From the NCBI RefSeq assembly GCF_032062105.1, contig NW_026937656.1, positions 1 to 64,000 on the forward strand: a stretch of DNA of 64,000 nucleotides, read 5' to 3'. The stretch is from Saccostrea cucullata (taxonomy: Eukaryota). Each line of letters begins with the position of its first letter. Positions within the stretch are counted from its first letter, which is position 1. A model generated the notes under the pieces. The model did no database searches, was not told where the DNA came from, and saw only the letters and a list, made by a program, of their open reading frames with translations. Shown here piece by piece: positions 2,824-37,925 of this stretch. A program made the translations under genes and the position numbers.

Positions 2824-3844
2824 TGTAATAGTGTTAGATTTGTATAATAAAGTTAGAGAACTTGCCAGAGTATTTATTTTAACTTTTATTTAACTTATTT
2901 AAAAACTTAGATCCACTCCTTAGTTCTCCCTTACCTGTATTACCTGTACATATATGTGTATATACCCCAGGGCATTGATCAGGTATTTTGGAAGTGGACA
3001 TTGTGATTTTGGGTTTTATTGGTCAGTGATTTAAAAGGTCGAATTCTATTGGTTTTCTTGGTTGGTCTGGATTTTTCCCGCTTAGTATGAGTATTCTTTG
3101 TTCTGTGGGTTGATCAGACAAGACCTTGATTTTGACATAGACTTGAGACTGAAGATTTTCCTTCTCTGGTAAGTTACTAATATTTTCTTATTTTAAATGT
3201 TTATCCTATAGAATGCAAAAGCTATCCATTTGCACTTAATTACTAAAGTGAATAAATGATTTTGAGAGAAAGTTATTTTATTATGCATATTTATTATTGG
3301 TTACAAGATCAATATGAAGTATTTACTAGAAGTAATTTGATATTACTCAGATTATGTGTTTTTATGATGATCAAAGATATTTTTGATTATATTGTTCAAA
3401 GTGAGCAATTAGTATATTTTTAAGAGATAATATTTTTAAATATTATTGTATTAAATTACAGATCACCATTCATATATAGACATATACATTTTGTCAGTCA
3501 GACAATTTATTGGGAAAGCCTGTTCCCACAGAATGGTGAGATTGATATGTTTTTACCTTTGATACTTTTTATTATTATTTTGGGAGAAATATGTCAAGAT
3601 TTATATATTTAAGAGTTATCTCCCTTTGATGATAATGTGTAAATTATAGAGGATGATAATCTAGGTATTATCTTCATGTAAAGTAATGAATGAACATGAT
3701 GTGTGTGATATTTACATTATATTTATTGCTGTTTTATGATATTTACAGGGCTATCTATGTATACCTATATGATCACTCCACTGTGAATAAATATTCAAAG
3801 AACCTGACAGGAATTTGTGTGTCATTGCCATACCCCCTGTTACA
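2824..3844 (+). repeat. 5' LTR of Gypsy-1
   Basis: TGTAATAGTG...CCCTGTTACA; direct repeat of 11154-12174; AATAAA at 3786-3791. Confidence 0.96.
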
Positions 3845-22544: not shown

Positions 22545-22780
22545 ATGGATTCCAGGAATAATCAACCTCCAAGACTTGCATATATATATACGACTATGAT
22601 GATTCCGGAAAATTAGTTTTAGTGAGGATCGAGGATTTTAATTACGGAAGGAATGCCCAAACTGTTATAACATGTTTGTAAAAACGGAAAACAGGCATGA
22701 ACATCAAACCATGCAGTGGACGCGTTGTTCAGTTCTATAAATGCCCAGCTTGTAGATGCCGGATTAAAATACCTAATTAG
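22545..22780 (+). pseudogene. Leader ORF B: small CxxC zinc-ribbon-like protein, frameshifted
   Basis: MDSRNNQPPRLAYIY/DYDDSGKLVLVRIEDFNY/KECPNCYNMF/KRKTGMNIKPCSGRVVQFYKCPACRCRIKIPN*. Joining the segments needs small indels. Confidence 0.45.
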
Positions 22781-22856
22781 AGAAAGTTAGTGATTTATCA
22801 ACCTGGATCCGTTTGTTATATTTGTGTTATTTGCCCACTGTGCTCTTCTACTTAAA

Positions 22857-24076
22857 ATGTTTCAATCACCGACGAATATGGAATCACAAAGAATAATTCC
22901 AGAGCGTCCAGCCCCGTATTATACGCCTTATCCAAGGACAAGTGCGCGTAGAAATTTAATGAGTGAATTTAACAGGATGTCGCCATCTCCTGTGATATCA
23001 AGTACACCGCTTAATTGGAGTTCTAGTGGGAATGAGCGCGAAACGCCAAGCAGTGCGGAATCCGGAAGCTCCGATTCCAGTACTTGGGGTTCATATATAT
23101 CTTATTTTCTGCTTGGAGTGGTTTTATGCATGTTGACAATACTTGGAAGTTATAAACTCTTCCCTATGGATTACCTGAACAGTCTGACTCGTGGAGCGGG
23201 AGTCGTCGTTGGAATTGTGTTATTCATGTTTATTTGTGCAGTGTTGAGGAAATTGTTCAACAAAGGACGTGCCAGTTTCGAGAATGAGACATCTAACGAG
23301 CAGATGCCAGGAAGAGGATCAGGAGTTAGTATTCAAATCAAACGCACCTTTAAGGGCGAAGGGGCCGAGATATGGAGCGAGTTCATTCGATATTTCGAGA
23401 ATATCGCTATGCTTAATCATTGGACTTTAGATATGAAACGGCGAGTTCTTATTACTACGTTTAGAGGACAAGCGGAAACATTTGCCTACGGATTGCCAGA
23501 GGATATTGTAGAAGATTACAATCAACTGAAGCAAAGTATGGATGACAGGTTTGGTCATCATGCAATGAAGGAAAGTTACATCGCCGAGGCAAAACTGCGG
23601 AAAAAGAGGAATACTGAATCTTATAGAGATTTTGGACAAGCCATTGCTGATCTTTATAGGCGAGCACATCCAAACAACAGAGACTATGTAGAGGAAGCCA
23701 GCCTTAAGACATTCCTAGACAACTGTGATGGTAACGGAATTTCGCCTTGCTGTAAAGCGAATGAGACCAGATACGCTACAAGAAGCTGTGACCGCAGGAG
23801 GAATGCATTAGAGTAACAGAAAATAGAAGTTCTAGAAATATTCAGAATCGTATTGTTAGACCTGTCTACAGAGTTAATGACTCTGTGAAATTTGATGCTA
23901 AACCTCAGATACACCCCGCGCAAAACAGTGAAGTACAAAGTAATGAAGCTGCACGGAGAATAAAGAAATGTTACGAATGTAACTCAACACAACACTTGTA
24001 CAGAGACTGTCCTATGAAGAAAAATGTAAATGACAGAAGACTGCAAAAACCTTTAAACCTAAAAGTGTCGAGGTAG
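22857..24076 (+). pseudogene. gag: Gag of Gypsy-3 with two N-terminal hydrophobic helices, capsid domain and CCHC knuckle; frameshifted near 23735-23780
   Basis: Hydrophobic segments YISYFLLGVVLCMLTILGSY and GAGVVVGIVLFMFICAVL; capsid-like FKGEGAEIWSEFIRYFENIA...W; knuckle CYECNSTQHLYRDC. Confidence 0.85.
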
Positions 24077-24114
24077 TAGGCCATGCATCGGCACAGGAGT
24101 TTGTAAAGCGGCCT
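24052..24114 (+). promoter_or_regulatory. -1 frameshift signal (U UUA AAC plus pseudoknot) of Gypsy-3
   Basis: TTTAAAC in gag phase, 6-nt spacer, stem 1 GTGTCGA/TCGGCAC, stem 2 AGGCC/GGCCT. The -1 frame is open into the protease. Confidence 0.8.
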
Positions 24115-26920
24115 TGTATAGGTAACCAGCAACCCCGGGATACTGCGGACGTTGTTAGTAAGGGAAATGTTACTGTATCAACGCAGACTGTTGTTGCTGA
24201 GAATATGCACCTGAATTATGACTCTAAGGATGTTGAAACTGGGGACTTTGTAGAGATTCAAGGGAAGTCCGGTATGAAGTTAGATGGTTTAGTTGAGGGC
24301 ACGCCAGTAGAGTGGAAATTAGACACGGGTGCAATAAATACGTTCATTACAGAGGATACTTATCTTAGCATCCTTCCAGAACACCGACCTGTACTTGAGC
24401 GCGTTAAGAAAATATTCCATACAGCCGATGGCAGGAGGTTAAAGGTTATGGGAACAACGAAAATGTTACTCTCATTTAAAAGTTTTCAAGTGATTTTCCG
24501 TGTATTTGTTGGAGAAGTTAAGAGTAACTTATTAGGACAAGACTTTATCACCAGGTTTCAATGCCAGTGGAATTATACATCTAATCTGTGTACCCTAAAA
24601 TCACAAAATGAGGAAATTATGCGAGGTAATTTTGTACAATGCATCGAGGATAGTGTCGTTCCTGCTCATTGTGAAATTGTGATTAAAGCAGCGTTCGAGC
24701 GGAGTGCAAATGCTACTGACGGTTTTCTAGTTCCACTAAAAACTTTTGTGTTTAGTTATGGACTTGCTGTAGCGCGAGAATTAGTAACTGCGACTACTGG
24801 CCAGAATATCATATATGTGCGTGTTTTTAATCCAAAAGATCGTGATGTAATTGTGAGAAAGAATTCTGAAATAGCAGTGTTTGATCCTGTGGATGCGGTT
24901 TCAACTGTGAACATTCTGGAAGTGAGCAATGTGACGTCAGTGGATAGTCGACTGCCTGAATATCTAGAACCAATCTTCAATGATGCGTGTAAAAATATGA
25001 CAAAAGAGCAAAGTGTTAAGTTCAAGGACTTTATTTTGTCGCGTGTAGATGCATTTGCAGATCCTAGTAAACCCGTTGAACGTGCTACGATCGGATAGCA
25101 TCGCATTAAATTGAAGGAGGAAGTACCCTTCAAGGAACCAGTGCGCAGGGTTCCGATATTTAAGAGAGAAATTATGGACGAGGAGCTCCGGAAACTGGAA
25201 GAACAAGGGATAATTGAGAGATCTAATAGCCCGTGGTCCTCACCTCTTGTGTTAGTACAGAGAAAAGGACAAATCATGGAGATTGTGTGTCGATTATCGT
25301 CGACTTAATGCAGACACCATTAAGGACGCATACTCCATACCTCGAGTGGCAGATGATCTTGACTCTCTCGCTGGATCTACATGGTTTTCGTCACTTGATT
25401 TAAACATGGCATACCATCAAATTCCGATGCGTGAAGAAGACAAAGAGAAAACAGCGTTTGCTACACCTCGTGGAGGCCTTTATCAATACACAGTTATGCC
25501 CTTTGGATTATGTAATGCCCCGGCAACATTTCAACGAGTGATAGAACAGGCACTAACTGGATTGCAGTGGAAAATCGCAGTGCTTTACCTGGATGATATT
25601 ATTGTGTACAGTCGAAGTTTTGATGAACATCTTAACAATCTTAATTTAGGTTTTGACAGGCTACAGAGTGTGAATTTAAAACTAAAAGCTAAGAAGTGCA
25701 ATTTCTTTAGACGTGAGGTTAGTTTTCTGGGACATATTGTATCTGAGAGTGGTATTAAGACCGACCCATCAAAAATTGAAGCTGTAAGGAACTGGAAAAA
25801 GCCCGAAACTGTGTCAGAACTTCGAAGTTTCCTTGGATTAGCAGCTTTCTATCGACGATTCATACAAGATTTTGCTAAAATTGCCAGATGTTTGCACGTC
25901 CTGACTGGAAAGAATAGTGTGTGGAATTGGACCAGTGAGTGTGACATAGCCTTTCAAACTTTGAAAGAGAAACTTATTTCAGCTCCTATTCTAGGATACC
26001 CAGACCCAGATGGTGGAGACTTTGTGTTAGACACTGACGCTAGTAATAGTTCTATTGGTGCTGTGCTATCGCAAATACAAAATGGACGAGAAGTTGTCAT
26101 TTCATATGGAAGCCGTGTGTTGAATAATTCTGAGCAGAATTATTGTGTTACGCGTAAAGAAATGCTAGCAGTTGTGTATTTTGTTAGACATTACAAGCAT
26201 TTTCTTCTTGGTAGAGAGTTTTTACTCAGAACAGACCATGGATCGCTAGTATGGCTTCATAGATTTCGAGAACCCGATGGCCAAATTGCGCGTTGGCTAC
26301 AACAACTTGGACCTTACGTGTTCCGGATCGAACACCGGGCAGGAAAACGACATGGAAATGCAGATGCATTATCTCGTCTGCCGTGTGAATTAAACTGCAA
26401 ACAATGTAAACGCGAGAAAAATGACTACCATGGCAATGATATATTCTCACATGTAACAGAACTAAGGAATTATTCTGCAAATAATGACAAAGACTGTATG
26501 TTAGAACTTAACCTGTTATTTGATGAGAAAACGAATTATGTTCTTACTTCGGAATGTGCTGTTGTTTCGCCTACTCTAAAGTCGAGATGTAATAGACCTG
26601 CCAGAGCCAAAGCACGGAAGCAGCCCATGATATCTTTAAGCTATGAGAGCATTCGTGAGAATCAAGCAAAAGACAACGGAATGCAAATCATAAACCGATG
26701 GCTGGAAAATGATGAAAAACCGCCATTATCAGTAATATCTGGAGAAAATTCGGAGTGTAAATTCTGGTATTCGAGATGGGATTTATTGTGTATTGACCGT
26801 GGTGTGATGTGCATTCGTTGGATTCTAGACAACAAAGAAGAAATAAAGATATGCTTACCGCGAAACATGCGCCATGTTGTGTTGTGGCACATGCACGATT
26901 CTAAAGTAGCTGGACATATG
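24052..26920 (+). pseudogene. pol: pol of Gypsy-3 (PR, RT, RNase H, start of IN), disrupted
   Basis: KLDTGA, CVDYRRLN, YLDDII, DTDAS and RTDHGSL motifs. Stop at 25096-25098, frameshift near 25262, truncated at the IN zinc finger. Confidence 0.92.
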
Positions 26921-27480
26921 TTGGGTTTGGTTCTTCGGTTCAGGCTCCCTGTACCCCTGTACCCTTGGCGCCGATGGCCCTTCTGTGGCTGGCCTTGGGC
27001 GCTGTTGAAAAAGGGATTCTGTGGGGCTGAGTTGTTGAAGCGTTATTAATGGTTTGGACCATTTTTGCAAGCATAAAATTGGTTCGGAGGTCCTCCATGG
27101 TTTTAGGGTTGACTTTTACCATACCTGCTTTTTTTCGGTTTTAATCCTCTGATTATTTGACCTTTGGTCTGATTGGTGTCTATTTTTAAGTTAACGGCTT
27201 TTTCAGTTACCCTGTGTTTAAAATTCTCAACAATTTCAGCCAATCCTTGGTGCATGTCCAGAAGATCAAAAACGTTGTTTGCTGGGTGCTTGGAGCGTTT
27301 GATGAAGGCTCTTGAACTGTCGTTAAAATTAATTTCTTTTAATTTTACCATTTCCAACGAAACGAACCAGGTCTCCGCTGCTTCGATGAGGAAGAATGGT
27401 AGACGTAGGATGGCTGTCTGTTCCGAAAGACTTTAGATGGATATAAAAGCCATGAACTTCATCCACCACTGAAATTTCTG
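26921..27480 (-). pseudogene. Decayed retrotransposon gag fragment in opposite orientation
   Basis: Minus strand FQWWMKFMAFISI*SLSEQTAILRLPFFLIEAAETWFVSLE fits a capsid-like W..F...LP..L...A..WF.SL pattern, followed by an N/Q/G/R-rich tail. Confidence 0.6.
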
Positions 27481-35140: not shown

Positions 35141-35578
35141 CACACTGAAATGTTGTTTGTGTATCACTGTCGCGTGTTGTTCTTCAGTTAATCTCTGTTG
35201 AGATTCTGCTGGGCTAGATATTTGGACTGACGCCCGCATAATCTCTGGACAGTCCTATATAATTCATGTCTGGAGATCAAGTCCCAACTTCGGCCGACTA
35301 TAGCAAGAATAATTCACCTAAGCCACACAGCTGCTCGCTTCAATTAAGTCATTTGGTTGTTTATTTGACCCTCTGTCACTTTTATTTCTACATTGCTTAC
35401 CTTTTAGGCATGTAAATCCCAACATAAAAATATTCACTGAAATTTCAGTTTTTAAATATGGCTCCTGTAACGAAATTGTTTACCTCCTCAAATAAAAGAG
35501 TTCTTATAGTCTGTTTTTACCCTAGGTGAATCTAAACCAATGTCTTCTGTGGCTATTGAACATCAATTAGGGTAAAAA

Positions 35579-36680
35579 CAAAGTTTTCGCCAAAGGTTTT
35601 CAAAGTGTCAAAGTTTTTCAAAGTGTTAAAGTTTTCGCCAAAGTTTTTCAAAGTGTCAAAGTTTTCGCCAAAGTTTTTCAAAGTATCAAACTTTTCGATC
35701 AAGTTTTTCAAAGCATCCCAAGTTTTCGATAAAGTTTTGTAAATTTTCAAAGTTGGCGATAAAGTTTTTTAAAGTCTCAAAGTTGGCGATAAAGTTTTTC
35801 TATGTGTTAAAGTATCCAAGTTTTCGACAAAGTTTTTCAAAGTGTTAAATTTTTTGATAAAATTTTTCAAAGTATCCAAGTTTTTGATTAAGTTTTACAA
35901 AGTATCAAAGACTTCGATAATGTTTTTCAAAGTGTCAAAGTTTTCAATGAAGTTTTTTTCAAAGAATCAAAGTTTTCAATAAAGTTTTTTAAAGTGTCAA
36001 AGTTTTCAAAAAACTTTTTCAAAGTTTTAAAGCATCCAAGTTTTCGATAAAGTTTTTCGAAGCATCCAAGTTTTTGATTAAGGTTTTCGAAGTATCAAAG
36101 TTTTCGATAAAGTTTTTCAAAGTTTTCCATAAAGTTTTTTGAAGTATCAAAGTTTTCGCCAAAGATTTTCAAAAAAGTGTCAAAGTTTTCACCAAAGTTT
36201 TTCAGAGTGTCAAAGTTTTCGTCAAAGTTTTTCAAAGTGTCAAAGTTTTCGCCAAAGTTTTTCAAAGTGTCAAAGTTTCCGCCAAAGATTTTATAAGTGT
36301 CAAAGTTTTCACCAAAGTTTTTCAAAGTGTCAAAGTTTTCGTCAAAGTTTTTTGAAGTATCAAAGTTTTTGATAAAGTTTTTCAAAGTGTCAAAGTTTTC
36401 GCCAAAGATTTTCAGAGTGTCAAAGTTTTCACCAAAGTTTTTCAAAGTGTCAAAGTTTTCGTCAAAGTTTTTCAAAGTGTCAAAGTTTTCATCAAAGTTT
36501 TTCAAAGTGTCAAAGTTTTCGCCAAAGTTTTTCAAAGTGTCAAAGTTTTCGTCAAAGTTTTTCAAAGTGTCAAAGTTTTCGTCAAAGTTTTTCAAAGTGT
36601 CAAAGTTATCACTATAGTAAATCAAAGTTTTCAAAGTTATCACGATAGTTAACTATAGTAAACTATAGTTAACTATAGTA
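35579..36680. repeat. 30-bp minisatellite (CAAAGTTTTCGCCAAAGTTTTTCAAAGTGT) ending in ACTATAGT repeats
   Basis: Directly visible. Homogeneous at 36180-36600 and degenerate to the left. Confidence 0.95.
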
Positions 36681-36691
36681 TTTTTTTGTTA

Positions 36692-37925
36692 GGGTAAGTA
36701 AGGAAAGTTGACGATAGAAAAGTTAAAGTCATCACGTTTATCATATAGCTTGGTTGTTAGATTATCATTAGTGTCTTTTTCAAGTAAGATATCCAAGTAT
36801 GAAGCAGAAGTGTCGGACTCTGTGGTATCTTTTATCTCAAGCTCACCAGGATATATCGTGTCGACGTAGGAATGGAAATTATCATTATTAATTGACAAAA
36901 CGTCGTCGATATATCTAAATGTCGAGTTGAAGGCCACAGCAAGTGTTTCGTTCTTTTCACGCATGAGATTTTGCATAAATTCTGCTTCATATGAATATAA
37001 AAATAAGTCTGCTAATAACGGAGCGCAATTTGTACCCATGGGAATTTCAATAGATTGTTGGAATACCTGGTCTCCAAAAACCACATAGATATTGTCAATC
37101 AGAAACTCAAGCATCTTCTTGATGTCAACTTCAGAGTACTTATGTGTGCAATCAGAATCTGTTTTAACAAAATAATTTTTCAAATGACCAATGACGAGGT
37201 AAGTAAATTTACGAGTTCCATTTCTGTTGAAAAAGCAGCTGTCAATGATATCAAAAAGCCTGGATTTTAATTTGTCGTGGGGAATGGTTGTGTATAAAGT
37301 TGAAAAGTCGTAAGTTTTTCAGCTGTTGATTTTTGTAAAGTCTTGTGATTTCAAATTGTCCAAAAGTTCTTTAGAATTTTTAAGTATCCACATCTGATTT
37401 ACACCACTTCTTGAATATATAGTTGTACAGAACTCTTGAAGTTTTTCCTTCACTACTGTCAATATTTTAGTGAGAAGTAACGAAAGAGGCTTGGTTGAAC
37501 ATTTACTGGAACCTGCAATGTATCTTTGTTTGTAAGGATTCTTATGAAGTTTTGGAATCCAATATATATAAGGTAGTTCAAATTTATTTGGCTCTGTGGA
37601 ATATTAAAAGTATTCAAAACTGACAGGTGATTTTGAAGAATTTTTTCCTTAGAAAGAGAAGTATGAGTATAAGTATTACCACTTGTAGAATTAAATCCAA
37701 GTTCTTCTAGAATACAATTTATATAATGAGCCTTACAAACGAAGACAATGTTGTTACCTGCTTTGTCGGCAGGAACCAGTACGTACTGATCGTGTAATCT
37801 AATTCTTTTTTCACTTCTGGTTTATTGAACACAGAAGGATAGATGGTTTTCATTTTGCCCCGCAATCTTTTAATACGTGACTTTAACATGGATCTGATAC
37901 ATTTAATCCATTCTGACAAAGTGTA
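36692..37925 (-). mobile_element. Penelope-like retroelement RT fragment
   Basis: YWIPKLHK, YDFSTLYT, IPMGTNCAPLLADLFL, FRYIDD and LYDKRDDFNF motifs. Contains stops and is truncated before the GIY-YIG domain. Confidence 0.92.

What the first reader, a model, noticed from the sequence alone, without database searches (positions are those of the whole stretch)
22857..23420. Gag with an N-terminal transmembrane-like hairpin
In the same uninterrupted frame as the capsid domain are two ~18-20-aa hydrophobic segments (~23094-23153 and ~23193-23246). They are separated by a 13-aa loop and followed by basic RKLFNKGR (positive-inside rule), so both the N-terminus and the capsid would face the cytosol. 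Upstream is a Pro/Tyr motif, PAPYYTPYP, loosely like late domains. Ty3/Gypsy Gags are normally soluble; an integral membrane anchor could drive assembly on membranes or env-independent budding. Function is inference.
Basis: partly seen in the sequence, partly recalled or inferred. Interest (0 to 1): 0.8.

Follow-up and report, generated by a model that had tools for sequence, protein, structure and literature searches.

The report
Retrotransposon capsid with built-in membrane anchor
A whole branch of envelope-less retrotransposons, found in this genome and in mussels, carries two conserved greasy helices in front of its capsid protein, which likely anchor the capsid in a cell membrane where related jumping genes have no such anchor.

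Summary
The ORF from 22857 is the Gag of a Ty3/Gypsy LTR retrotransposon without env. Its capsid fold matches PNMA2/Arc/Ty3. Two ~19-residue hydrophobic helices lie upstream of the capsid in the same frame.

The hairpin is a lineage trait. It is in 86 of 93 close capsid relatives with a long N-terminus, including Mytilus proteins. It marks one branch of a capsid tree (100/98 support; 31 of 34 rows, against 1 of 21 outside). It keeps its hydrophobicity at about 26% identity. The conserved Met lies upstream of the helices, so a start at MPGRG is unlikely. The 'late domain' is not conserved.

New here: many families have an in-frame CTG in strong start context (21 of 22 copies; window 22803). It would add a third hydrophobic helix, recalling MLV glyco-Gag. 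The N-terminal arm is rich in kinase-type motifs, and uninterrupted copies carry zinc-binding accessory ORFs.

Most likely Gag and Gag-Pol insert into the ER or nuclear envelope and assemble there. Membrane insertion, topology and budding are predicted, not shown. Ten paper searches found no description of it.

The parts
21646..22131 (+). 5' LTR (TG...CA)
   Evidence: 94-96% identical to both LTRs of sister copy L031, whose own LTRs are 99% identical, with a 4-bp target-site repeat
22134..22151 (+). Primer-binding site, tRNA-Leu-like (tRNA label recalled); diverged from sister copies
   Evidence: Starts 2 nt after the LTR; related TGGTGGCAGC sites in 9 of 17 loci scanned
22227..22451 (+). uORF1, 74-aa Cys-rich zinc-ribbon-like accessory ORF; has a stop in the window copy
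   Evidence: Open in L031, L032, L050; only weak zinc-ribbon Pfam hits, E 0.01 or worse
22545..22780 (+). uORF2, 76-aa CxxC...CxxC accessory ORF; frameshifted in the window copy
   Evidence: 111 matches in the genome; low-confidence beta-ribbon model, pLDDT 62; weak Pfam hits
22803..22859 (+). Candidate CUG start (aacCTGg) and in-frame hydrophobic leader helix (helix 0)
   Evidence: CTG in 21 of 22 distinct copies with the leader, A at -3 in 22, G at +4 in 21; T enriched at codon position 2, p=1.4e-6; pN below pS in 6 of 6 between-family pairs; helix 3-20 at pLDDT 82-85
22857..23087 (+). Gag AUG starts (22857; conserved strong-context AUG at 22878) and disordered N-terminal arm with RRxL (22947-22958) and S-S/T-P (22998-23009) motifs
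   Evidence: Met at the 22878 column in 74 of 80 homologs; motif enrichment over shuffles; pLDDT under 50
23088..23153 (+). Hydrophobic helix 1 (predicted transmembrane)
23154..23192 (+). Short loop: Pro turn plus amphipathic helix (predicted on the luminal side)
   Evidence: Commonest loop length 15 aa (35 of 80); Pro in 89% of rows; mean hydrophobic moment 1.06
23193..23270 (+). Hydrophobic helix 2 (predicted transmembrane) and basic flank
   Evidence: Uncharged run of exactly 19 residues in 11 of 13 families; Lys/Arg at its end in 94% of rows
23331..23737 (+). Capsid domain (two-lobed CA); frame broken near 23737 in this copy; CCHC knuckle follows out of frame near 23972-24013
   Evidence: Foldseek PNMA2 E 4e-4, then dArc1, Ty3; VIA-align Z 10.9 to dARC1, rmsd 7.6, 161 aligned; Pfam Retrotrans_gag in 7 of 80 homologs
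24052..24058 (+). Slippery heptamer TTTAAAC at the gag/pol overlap (candidate -1 frameshift site)
   Evidence: TTAAAC at the Gag end in 8 of the 9 loci printed; pol in the -1 frame
24034..26920 (+). pol: protease, RT, RNase H; interrupted, and cut off before the integrase core
   Evidence: Pfam; uninterrupted relatives continue to integrase and a C2H2-finger/acidic ORF3, with no env

Best explanation
This is the Gag of an env-less Ty3/Gypsy lineage whose conserved two-helix hairpin likely inserts into the ER or nuclear-envelope membrane during translation, so that capsids would assemble on the cytosolic face of that membrane. Shown: the hairpin, its conservation, its place upstream of the capsid, upstream start codons, and no env. 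Inferred: the hairpin spans the bilayer with the N-terminal arm and CA-NC in the cytosol, and does the job that matrix plus myristate does in retroviruses and the SRP-bound N-terminus does in mouse IAP. Gag-Pol, made by a likely -1 frameshift, would carry the same anchor, concentrating both on one membrane with their RNA. Particles would wrap in or bud into that membrane, and the element's protease would likely cut the core free in the variable linker. The N-terminal arm carries motifs of the kind read by cell-cycle kinases (labels recalled), which may time assembly or release to division. In about two thirds of the copies examined, a CUG start would add a third helix, likely a minor isoform.
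For: Hairpin in 86 of 93 close capsid hits with an N-terminus of 130 aa or more. One tree branch (100/98) holds 31 hairpin-bearing rows of 34, against 1 of 21 outside. Median identity among 13 families is 26% in the hairpin and 65% in CA, yet only 4 of 481 helix positions are charged. pN is below pS in the hairpin in 12 of 13 pairs. Positive flank after helix 2 and a neutral loop. Helix 2 is short, 19 residues, which fits ER-type membranes (rule recalled). Conserved Met upstream, none downstream. RRxL in 42 of 78 arms (shuffles 2.6), S/T-P-K/R in 66 (12.1), S-S/T-P in 43 (11.2), DSG in 22 (2.2); N-glycosylation sequons not kept, median 0. Both fit a cytosolic arm. One RNA-library contig runs unspliced from uORF2 through CTG and hairpin into CA (X3 record 9). 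Precedent: Ty1 Gag and IAP Gag are brought to the ER by SRP (PMC3945221, passages).
Against: No experiment and no dedicated TM predictor. Three close relatives with long N-termini (P0095, P0101, P0105) and two further rows inside the branch (P0126, P0177) have no hydrophobic segment; they may be deleted copies or truncated gene calls, or show that the anchor can be lost. The flank before helix 1 is nearly neutral (2.1 K/R, 1.6 D/E), so topology rests mainly on helix 2. In the one pair without pN below pS (L031/L032) the hairpin has almost no changes. RNA support is thin: depth 1-5 on both strands in one raw-read run with no raw reads over the hairpin, and RNA-library contigs may hold DNA. Motif counts are inflated by kinship. 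Which membrane is used is not shown.
Confidence: 0.55

Rival explanations
1. The anchor carries Gag through the secretory pathway to the plasma membrane or endosomes. There it drives release of membrane-wrapped particles, or direct cell-to-cell transfer without Env; the amphipathic loop is the only outward-facing part.
For: No env in any uninterrupted copy read. The loop is conserved and amphipathic and is 25-40 aa in distant members. Env-less MDG1 elements, which also have two small ORFs before gag, pass between cells and encode a small TM protein that localises with capsids (bioRxiv 10.1101/2025.03.14.642691, abstract passage and section 7).
Against: No conserved late domain (1 of 78). Short helix 2. 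The loop is small, with no myristoylation motif seen. The uORFs are zinc-binding, not FAST-like. No transfer between species was tested.
Confidence: 0.2
2. The CUG-initiated form is a glyco-Gag-like accessory protein. Helix 0 acts as a signal peptide or type II anchor and flips the topology, so that arm and capsid lie in the lumen or at the cell surface, while the AUG form builds particles. This can be true alongside the best explanation.
For: CTG in 21 of 22 copies in strong context, though CTG is only 14% (72 of 501) of Leu codons in these Gags. The leader's conserved Val and His use varied codons. MLV glyco-Gag starts at a CUG upstream of gag and enters the ER (PMC3265304, passages).
Against: Helix 0 has an acidic N-flank and in some families a Lys after it, which fits an N-out anchor that keeps CA cytosolic. 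Sequons are not conserved. 7 of 20 fetched copies lack the leader.
Confidence: 0.15
3. The hydrophobic helices do not span a bilayer. They pack on each other as a matrix-like oligomer, or the N-terminal third is cut off early as a separate accessory peptide and a soluble CA-NC assembles in the cytosol.
For: ASPRV1, a domesticated gag-pro gene, has an N-terminal hydrophobic region that is removed by autoproteolysis and is not predicted as TM (PMC11402058, passages). The linker after helix 2 is long and variable.
Against: Two 19-residue runs almost free of charge, low identity with kept hydrophobicity, interfacial aromatic residues and a basic stop flank are the pattern of TM helices, not of a soluble core.
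Confidence: 0.08
4. Chance hydrophobicity, or decay in one broken copy.
For: The window copy has frameshifts and stops.
Against: 0 of 2000 shuffles; conserved across families and species.
Confidence: 0.02

Closest known systems
Ty3/Gypsy (Metaviridae) LTR retrotransposons; mollusc clades of Thomas-Bulle et al. 2018 (PMC6238403)
   Same: LTR-PBS-gag-pol(PR-RT-RH-IN)-LTR, Ty3/Arc/PNMA-type capsid, CCHC knuckle, likely -1 frameshift.
   Different: Gag carries a two-helix hydrophobic hairpin; zinc-binding uORFs and a C2H2/acidic ORF3 are added. That paper classifies by RT/RNase H and never uses the word 'transmembrane'. I could not assign the named clade: no sequence motif was found in its readable supplements.
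Mouse IAP Gag (and yeast Ty1 Gag)
   Same: Env-independent element whose Gag is brought to the ER by SRP (as stated in PMC3945221, passages; the IAP primary paper was not held).
   Different: Per those passages IAP Gag was not translocated and Ty1 Gag has no discernible TM domain. Here there are two, sometimes three, full-length predicted TM helices. IAP is a retrovirus derivative, Ty1 a Copia element.
MLV glyco-Gag (gPr80)
   Same: CUG in a favourable context upstream of the gag AUG adds a hydrophobic N-terminal extension (PMC3265304, passages).
   Different: In MLV standard Gag has no TM anchor and the extension is 88 codons. Here even the AUG form has the hairpin, and the extension is 18-30 codons.
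Drosophila MDG1-group sORF1/sORF2
   Same: Env-less Gypsy elements with two small ORFs before gag and a TM protein associated with capsids (bioRxiv 2025.03.14.642691).
   Different: sORF2 is a separate single-pass FAST-like protein. Here the hydrophobic helices are in Gag itself and the uORFs are Cys-rich zinc ribbons.
Domesticated Gag genes with hydrophobic segments (Drosophila Gagr, mammalian ASPRV1)
   Same: Gag-derived protein with a hydrophobic or TM segment (PMC8956099, PMC11402058, passages).
   Different: Single host genes with one segment; for Gagr it is described as gained after domestication. Here it is a trait of a recently mobile multi-family lineage.

Membership tests
Ty3/Gypsy LTR retrotransposon | Direct LTRs with TG...CA ends, PBS, target-site repeat | tested here: met
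   L031 LTRs 99% identical, 4-bp flanking repeat; window 5' LTR and PBS
Ty3/Gypsy LTR retrotransposon | pol order PR-RT-RH-IN | tested here: met
   Pfam order in L031 pol and in the window
Ty3/Gypsy LTR retrotransposon | Gag with Ty3/Arc-type two-lobed capsid and zinc knuckle | tested here: met
Named mollusc Gypsy clade (MolGy1-16, C-clade, CsRN1) | Placement in the RT/RNase H tree with reference elements | not testable with these tools
   Reference sequences were not obtainable from the supplements
Errantivirus / env-carrying Gypsy | env ORF (F- or gB-type glycoprotein) | tested here: not met
   The ORF after pol is a C2H2/acidic protein with no TM segment in the copies read
MDG1-group sORF2/FAST-like system | Separate 60-210 aa single-TM ORF with an N-myristoylation motif | tested here: not met
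   uORFs read from their ATG are Cys-rich and start with no MG motif; hydrophobic stretches before the uORF2 ATG are unexplained
Glyco-Gag-like isoform | Conserved in-frame CUG in strong context upstream of the gag AUG, encoding a hydrophobic segment | tested here: met
Glyco-Gag-like isoform | Initiation at the CUG, translocation and glycosylation of Gag | not testable with these tools
   Needs ribosome profiling and biochemistry; sequons are not conserved
IAP-like ER-assembling element | SRP-dependent ER targeting and particles at or in ER cisternae | not testable with these tools
   Sequence features only
Late-domain (ESCRT-recruiting) Gag | Conserved PPxY, YPxL or P(S/T)AP | tested here: not met
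   1 of 78 N-terminal arms and 0 of 76 post-helix linkers; the region after CA was not scanned

The most novel reading that the evidence does not exclude
An old lineage of env-less marine-invertebrate retrotransposons has fused its membrane protein to its capsid. An integral-membrane Gag wraps particles in host membrane and moves them between cells or hosts without Env, with a CUG/AUG switch giving two topological isoforms and cell-cycle phosphorylation timing release. That would be a route to enveloped particles distinct from myristoylated matrix, captured Env and FAST-like sORF2.
Probability: 0.2. Interest if true: 0.92.

Novelty: new variant of a known kind. Interest (0 to 1): 0.72.

Why it matters
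Retrotransposon and retroviral Gags reach membranes through matrix domains, lipid anchors, Env or SRP-bound signals (partly recalled). A lineage-wide polytopic anchor inside Gag would be a different assembly route. It bears on how LTR elements came to make enveloped particles and how env-less elements might move between cells. The claim is directly testable by topology mapping, ribosome profiling at one defined CUG, and immuno-EM. The hairpin also marks a branch of Gypsy elements that has so far been classified by RT alone.

Tried and rejected
Late-domain reading: not conserved.

Internal start at MPGRG: poor context, not conserved.

Splice-acceptor or polypyrimidine reading of the T-rich leader: there is no AG between the upstream in-frame stop and the CTG in the window family, and the T bias follows codon position. 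Frame +1 has stops in 7 of 8 families, but frame +2 is also open in 7 of 8, so open frames alone prove little.

Start codon of homolog P0015, whose record begins with Met at the CTG position: not read. The Met may be ATG, GTG or TTG, so it is not counted as evidence.

No informative hits: Pfam on the window Gag, the ESM Atlas for the N-terminal 200 aa and for P0092, PDB sequence search with the CA profile. Fold matches over the hairpin were generic helical hairpins, Z 7 or less, inconclusive.

Splicing or expression level: not shown by the read lay.

Earlier findings of this scan: none in three look-ups.

No complex prediction was run. No RT tree was built.

Full report
OBSERVATION. The frame 22794-23816 is open. 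From ATG 22857 it encodes a Ser/Thr/Pro-rich arm, two hydrophobic stretches (19-residue Kyte-Doolittle means 2.0 and 2.5), a basic flank and then a capsid domain. Two such stretches appeared in 0 of 2000 shuffles. The unrelated Gypsy Gag at 18245-19891 has none (maximum 0.82).

THE ELEMENT. The window holds a 5' LTR (21646-22131), a PBS, two small Cys-rich ORFs, gag and pol with protease, RT and RNase H. It is a decayed copy: both uORFs are broken, gag shifts frame near 23737, pol is interrupted and ends at about 26920. Sister copies L031 and L032 (96% identical over the first 200 aa) have an uninterrupted 431-codon gag frame ending in a zinc knuckle. L031 has 99% identical LTRs, integrase and a downstream C2H2/acidic ORF3, and no env. 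A TTAAAC site sits at the gag end in 8 of the 9 loci printed, with pol in the -1 frame, so Gag-Pol would share the N-terminus (inference). AlphaFold2 with an 80-sequence alignment gave a confident capsid (pLDDT about 95) and helices at 3-20, 94-119 and 122-162. The best fold matches are PNMA2, dArc1, Arc and Ty3 capsids. Named homologs are from Mytilus and Mizuhopecten, so the host is probably a bivalve (inference).

CONSERVATION. The first 200 aa gave 180 matches in the genome, a lower bound and not a copy number. All 20 copies fetched at length show both helices. For a count not ranked by the hairpin I searched with a capsid-only profile and pooled those hits with the earlier full-length search, keeping rows with a near-complete capsid. 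Of 127 close rows (200 bits or more), 93 have an N-terminus of 130 aa or more: 86 have two or more hydrophobic segments, 4 have one and 3 have none. Of 56 distant rows, 27 have a long N-terminus: 6 have two, 3 one and 18 none. A capsid tree was built from 55 rows: 24 close rows that I picked, plus distant rows with an N-terminus of 90 aa or more; shorter ones were dropped. It has one branch at 100/98 support with 34 rows, 31 of them hydrophobic, against 1 of 21 outside, and that one is at the extreme N-terminus. The tree is unrooted, so this is one side of a branch; gain versus loss is not shown. Distant members have 25-40 aa loops and no organism names. The figure 79 of 80 in alignment A1 is biased, because I chose long sequences for it. 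Among 13 families of this genome the hairpin is 26% identical at the median (capsid 65%), only 4 of 481 helix positions are charged, helix 2 is an uncharged run of exactly 19 in 11 of 13, and pN is below pS in 12 of 13 pairs.

START CODONS. A Met is shared by 74 of 80 aligned homologs at window 22878, in strong context (29 of the 74 are first residues of predicted proteins). Half of the homologs, 40 of 80, have no Met between helix 2 and the capsid, and no column there holds more than 5. A soluble Gag from a downstream AUG is therefore not a shared feature.

THE CUG LEADER. Upstream of the AUG, 13 of 20 long copies keep an open, hydrophobic 18-30-codon leader. A pattern that left the first codon free found 22 distinct copies in about 8 families: 21 begin with CTG and one with GTG, all have A at -3 and 21 have G at +4. 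CTG is 14% of Leu codons in these Gags. T is enriched at codon position 2 (89 of 136, against 47 and 61; p=1.4e-6). The conserved Val and His use different codons across families, and pN is below pS in the 6 between-family pairs with a leader. Reads of one RNA run (3 of 3) and one contig also show C at that base. The families share ancestry, so these are not independent events, and initiation itself is not shown. Seven of 20 copies lack the leader, so it is a sub-lineage trait.

TOPOLOGY AND MECHANISM (inferred). After helix 2 there are on average 2.7 K/R and 1.2 D/E. The loop is near neutral, with a conserved Pro turn and an amphipathic helix; the flank before helix 1 is weakly biased. This favours arm and capsid in the cytosol. 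The arm is enriched in RRxL (42 of 78; shuffles 2.6), S/T-P-K/R (66; 12.1), S-S/T-P (43; 11.2) and DSG (22; 2.2). From recall, these resemble cyclin-docking, proline-directed kinase, Polo-box and beta-TrCP motifs. S-T-P and DSG also occur in several hairpin-less relatives, so they are not specific to the anchor. Late-domain motifs are not enriched (1; 3.1). I commit to co-translational ER or nuclear-envelope insertion and membrane-bound assembly, with protease release of the core (0.55). That the helices insert in some membrane I put at about 0.9. Rivals are plasma-membrane or extracellular release (0.2), a topology-flipped glyco-Gag-like CUG isoform (0.15, not exclusive), and non-inserted or pre-cleaved helices (0.08).

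EXPRESSION. Twenty listed runs hold part of the stretch, 4 of them on record as RNA. Laying 4 of the 24 listed runs on L031 gave 186 and 30 reads in two poly(A) runs, on both strands, with none over the hairpin, and no canonical splice joints. One contig spans uORF2 to the capsid. This shows neither level nor strand of transcription.

LITERATURE. Ten searches showed, in their listings, no description of a transmembrane hairpin or CUG leader in Gypsy Gag. The library lacks most subscription papers and Repbase reports. I saw passages of PMC13524379, PMC8956099, PMC6238403 (supplements listed and term-searched, with one PDF and one slide file unreadable, which may bear on the clade name; 29, 59), PMC3265304, PMC3945221, PMC8556966, PMC5408684 and PMC11402058, and passages plus section 7 of bioRxiv 10.1101/2025.03.14.642691 (16, 56). 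The closest analogies are IAP and Ty1 Gag (SRP, ER), MLV glyco-Gag (CUG, hydrophobic extension) and MDG1 sORF2 (env-less, TM protein with capsids). Rotifer Vesta4 has a two-TM protein, but as a separate ORF3. In none of the passages read does Gag of a mobile element carry the hairpin itself.

VERDICT. A real, lineage-defining feature of a Ty3/Gypsy branch: a new variant of a known kind. Sequence support for a membrane-anchored Gag is strong and for a CUG-extended isoform good. There is no functional test. Interest 0.72.

Noticed in passing
window 22227-22780; L032:988-1533; L050:917-1444: Two small Cys-rich zinc-ribbon-like ORFs between the PBS and gag. uORF2 has 111 matches in the genome and no firm Pfam family. 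Families L044 and L045 lack them. How ribosomes reach gag behind them is unexplained.
   Followed up: partly
L031:6937-7734 and the equivalent place in most long copies: ORF3 after pol encodes two C2H2 zinc fingers and a long acidic tail, like a transcription activator; missing from the truncated window copy.
   Followed up: partly
window ~22470-22544; L033:1124-1489; L050:1148-1220: An in-frame hydrophobic stretch also precedes the uORF2 ATG in several families. In L033 it is continuous with the end of uORF1; in L050 one stop separates them.
   Followed up: no
L044:1710-1790; L045:1805-1885: In families without uORFs, the Gag frame is open back through the PBS and LTR end.
   Followed up: no
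P0188, P0192: Hairpin-less relatives carry an N-terminal segment resembling a SAP domain (label recalled, not tested).
   Followed up: no
window 15656-19949 (minus strand): A second, unrelated Gypsy element with short near-identical direct repeats (99% over 101 nt) and long gag and pol frames; its Gag has no hydrophobic segment.
   Followed up: partly
window 21274-21645 and 26920-27430: LINE-like reverse-transcriptase fragments flank the element (recognised by eye); the downstream one abuts the point where pol is cut off.
   Followed up: no
window 49464-52921: Large nested inverted repeat (arms up to 672 nt, 96% complementary) built from ~148-nt units.
   Followed up: no
window 35532-36718; 1266-2403; 53111-54059: Tandem arrays with 30-nt and 166-168-nt periods.
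   Followed up: no
window 2824-3796 and 11154-12126: Near-identical direct repeats 8330 nt apart, possibly the LTRs of a third element.
   Followed up: no
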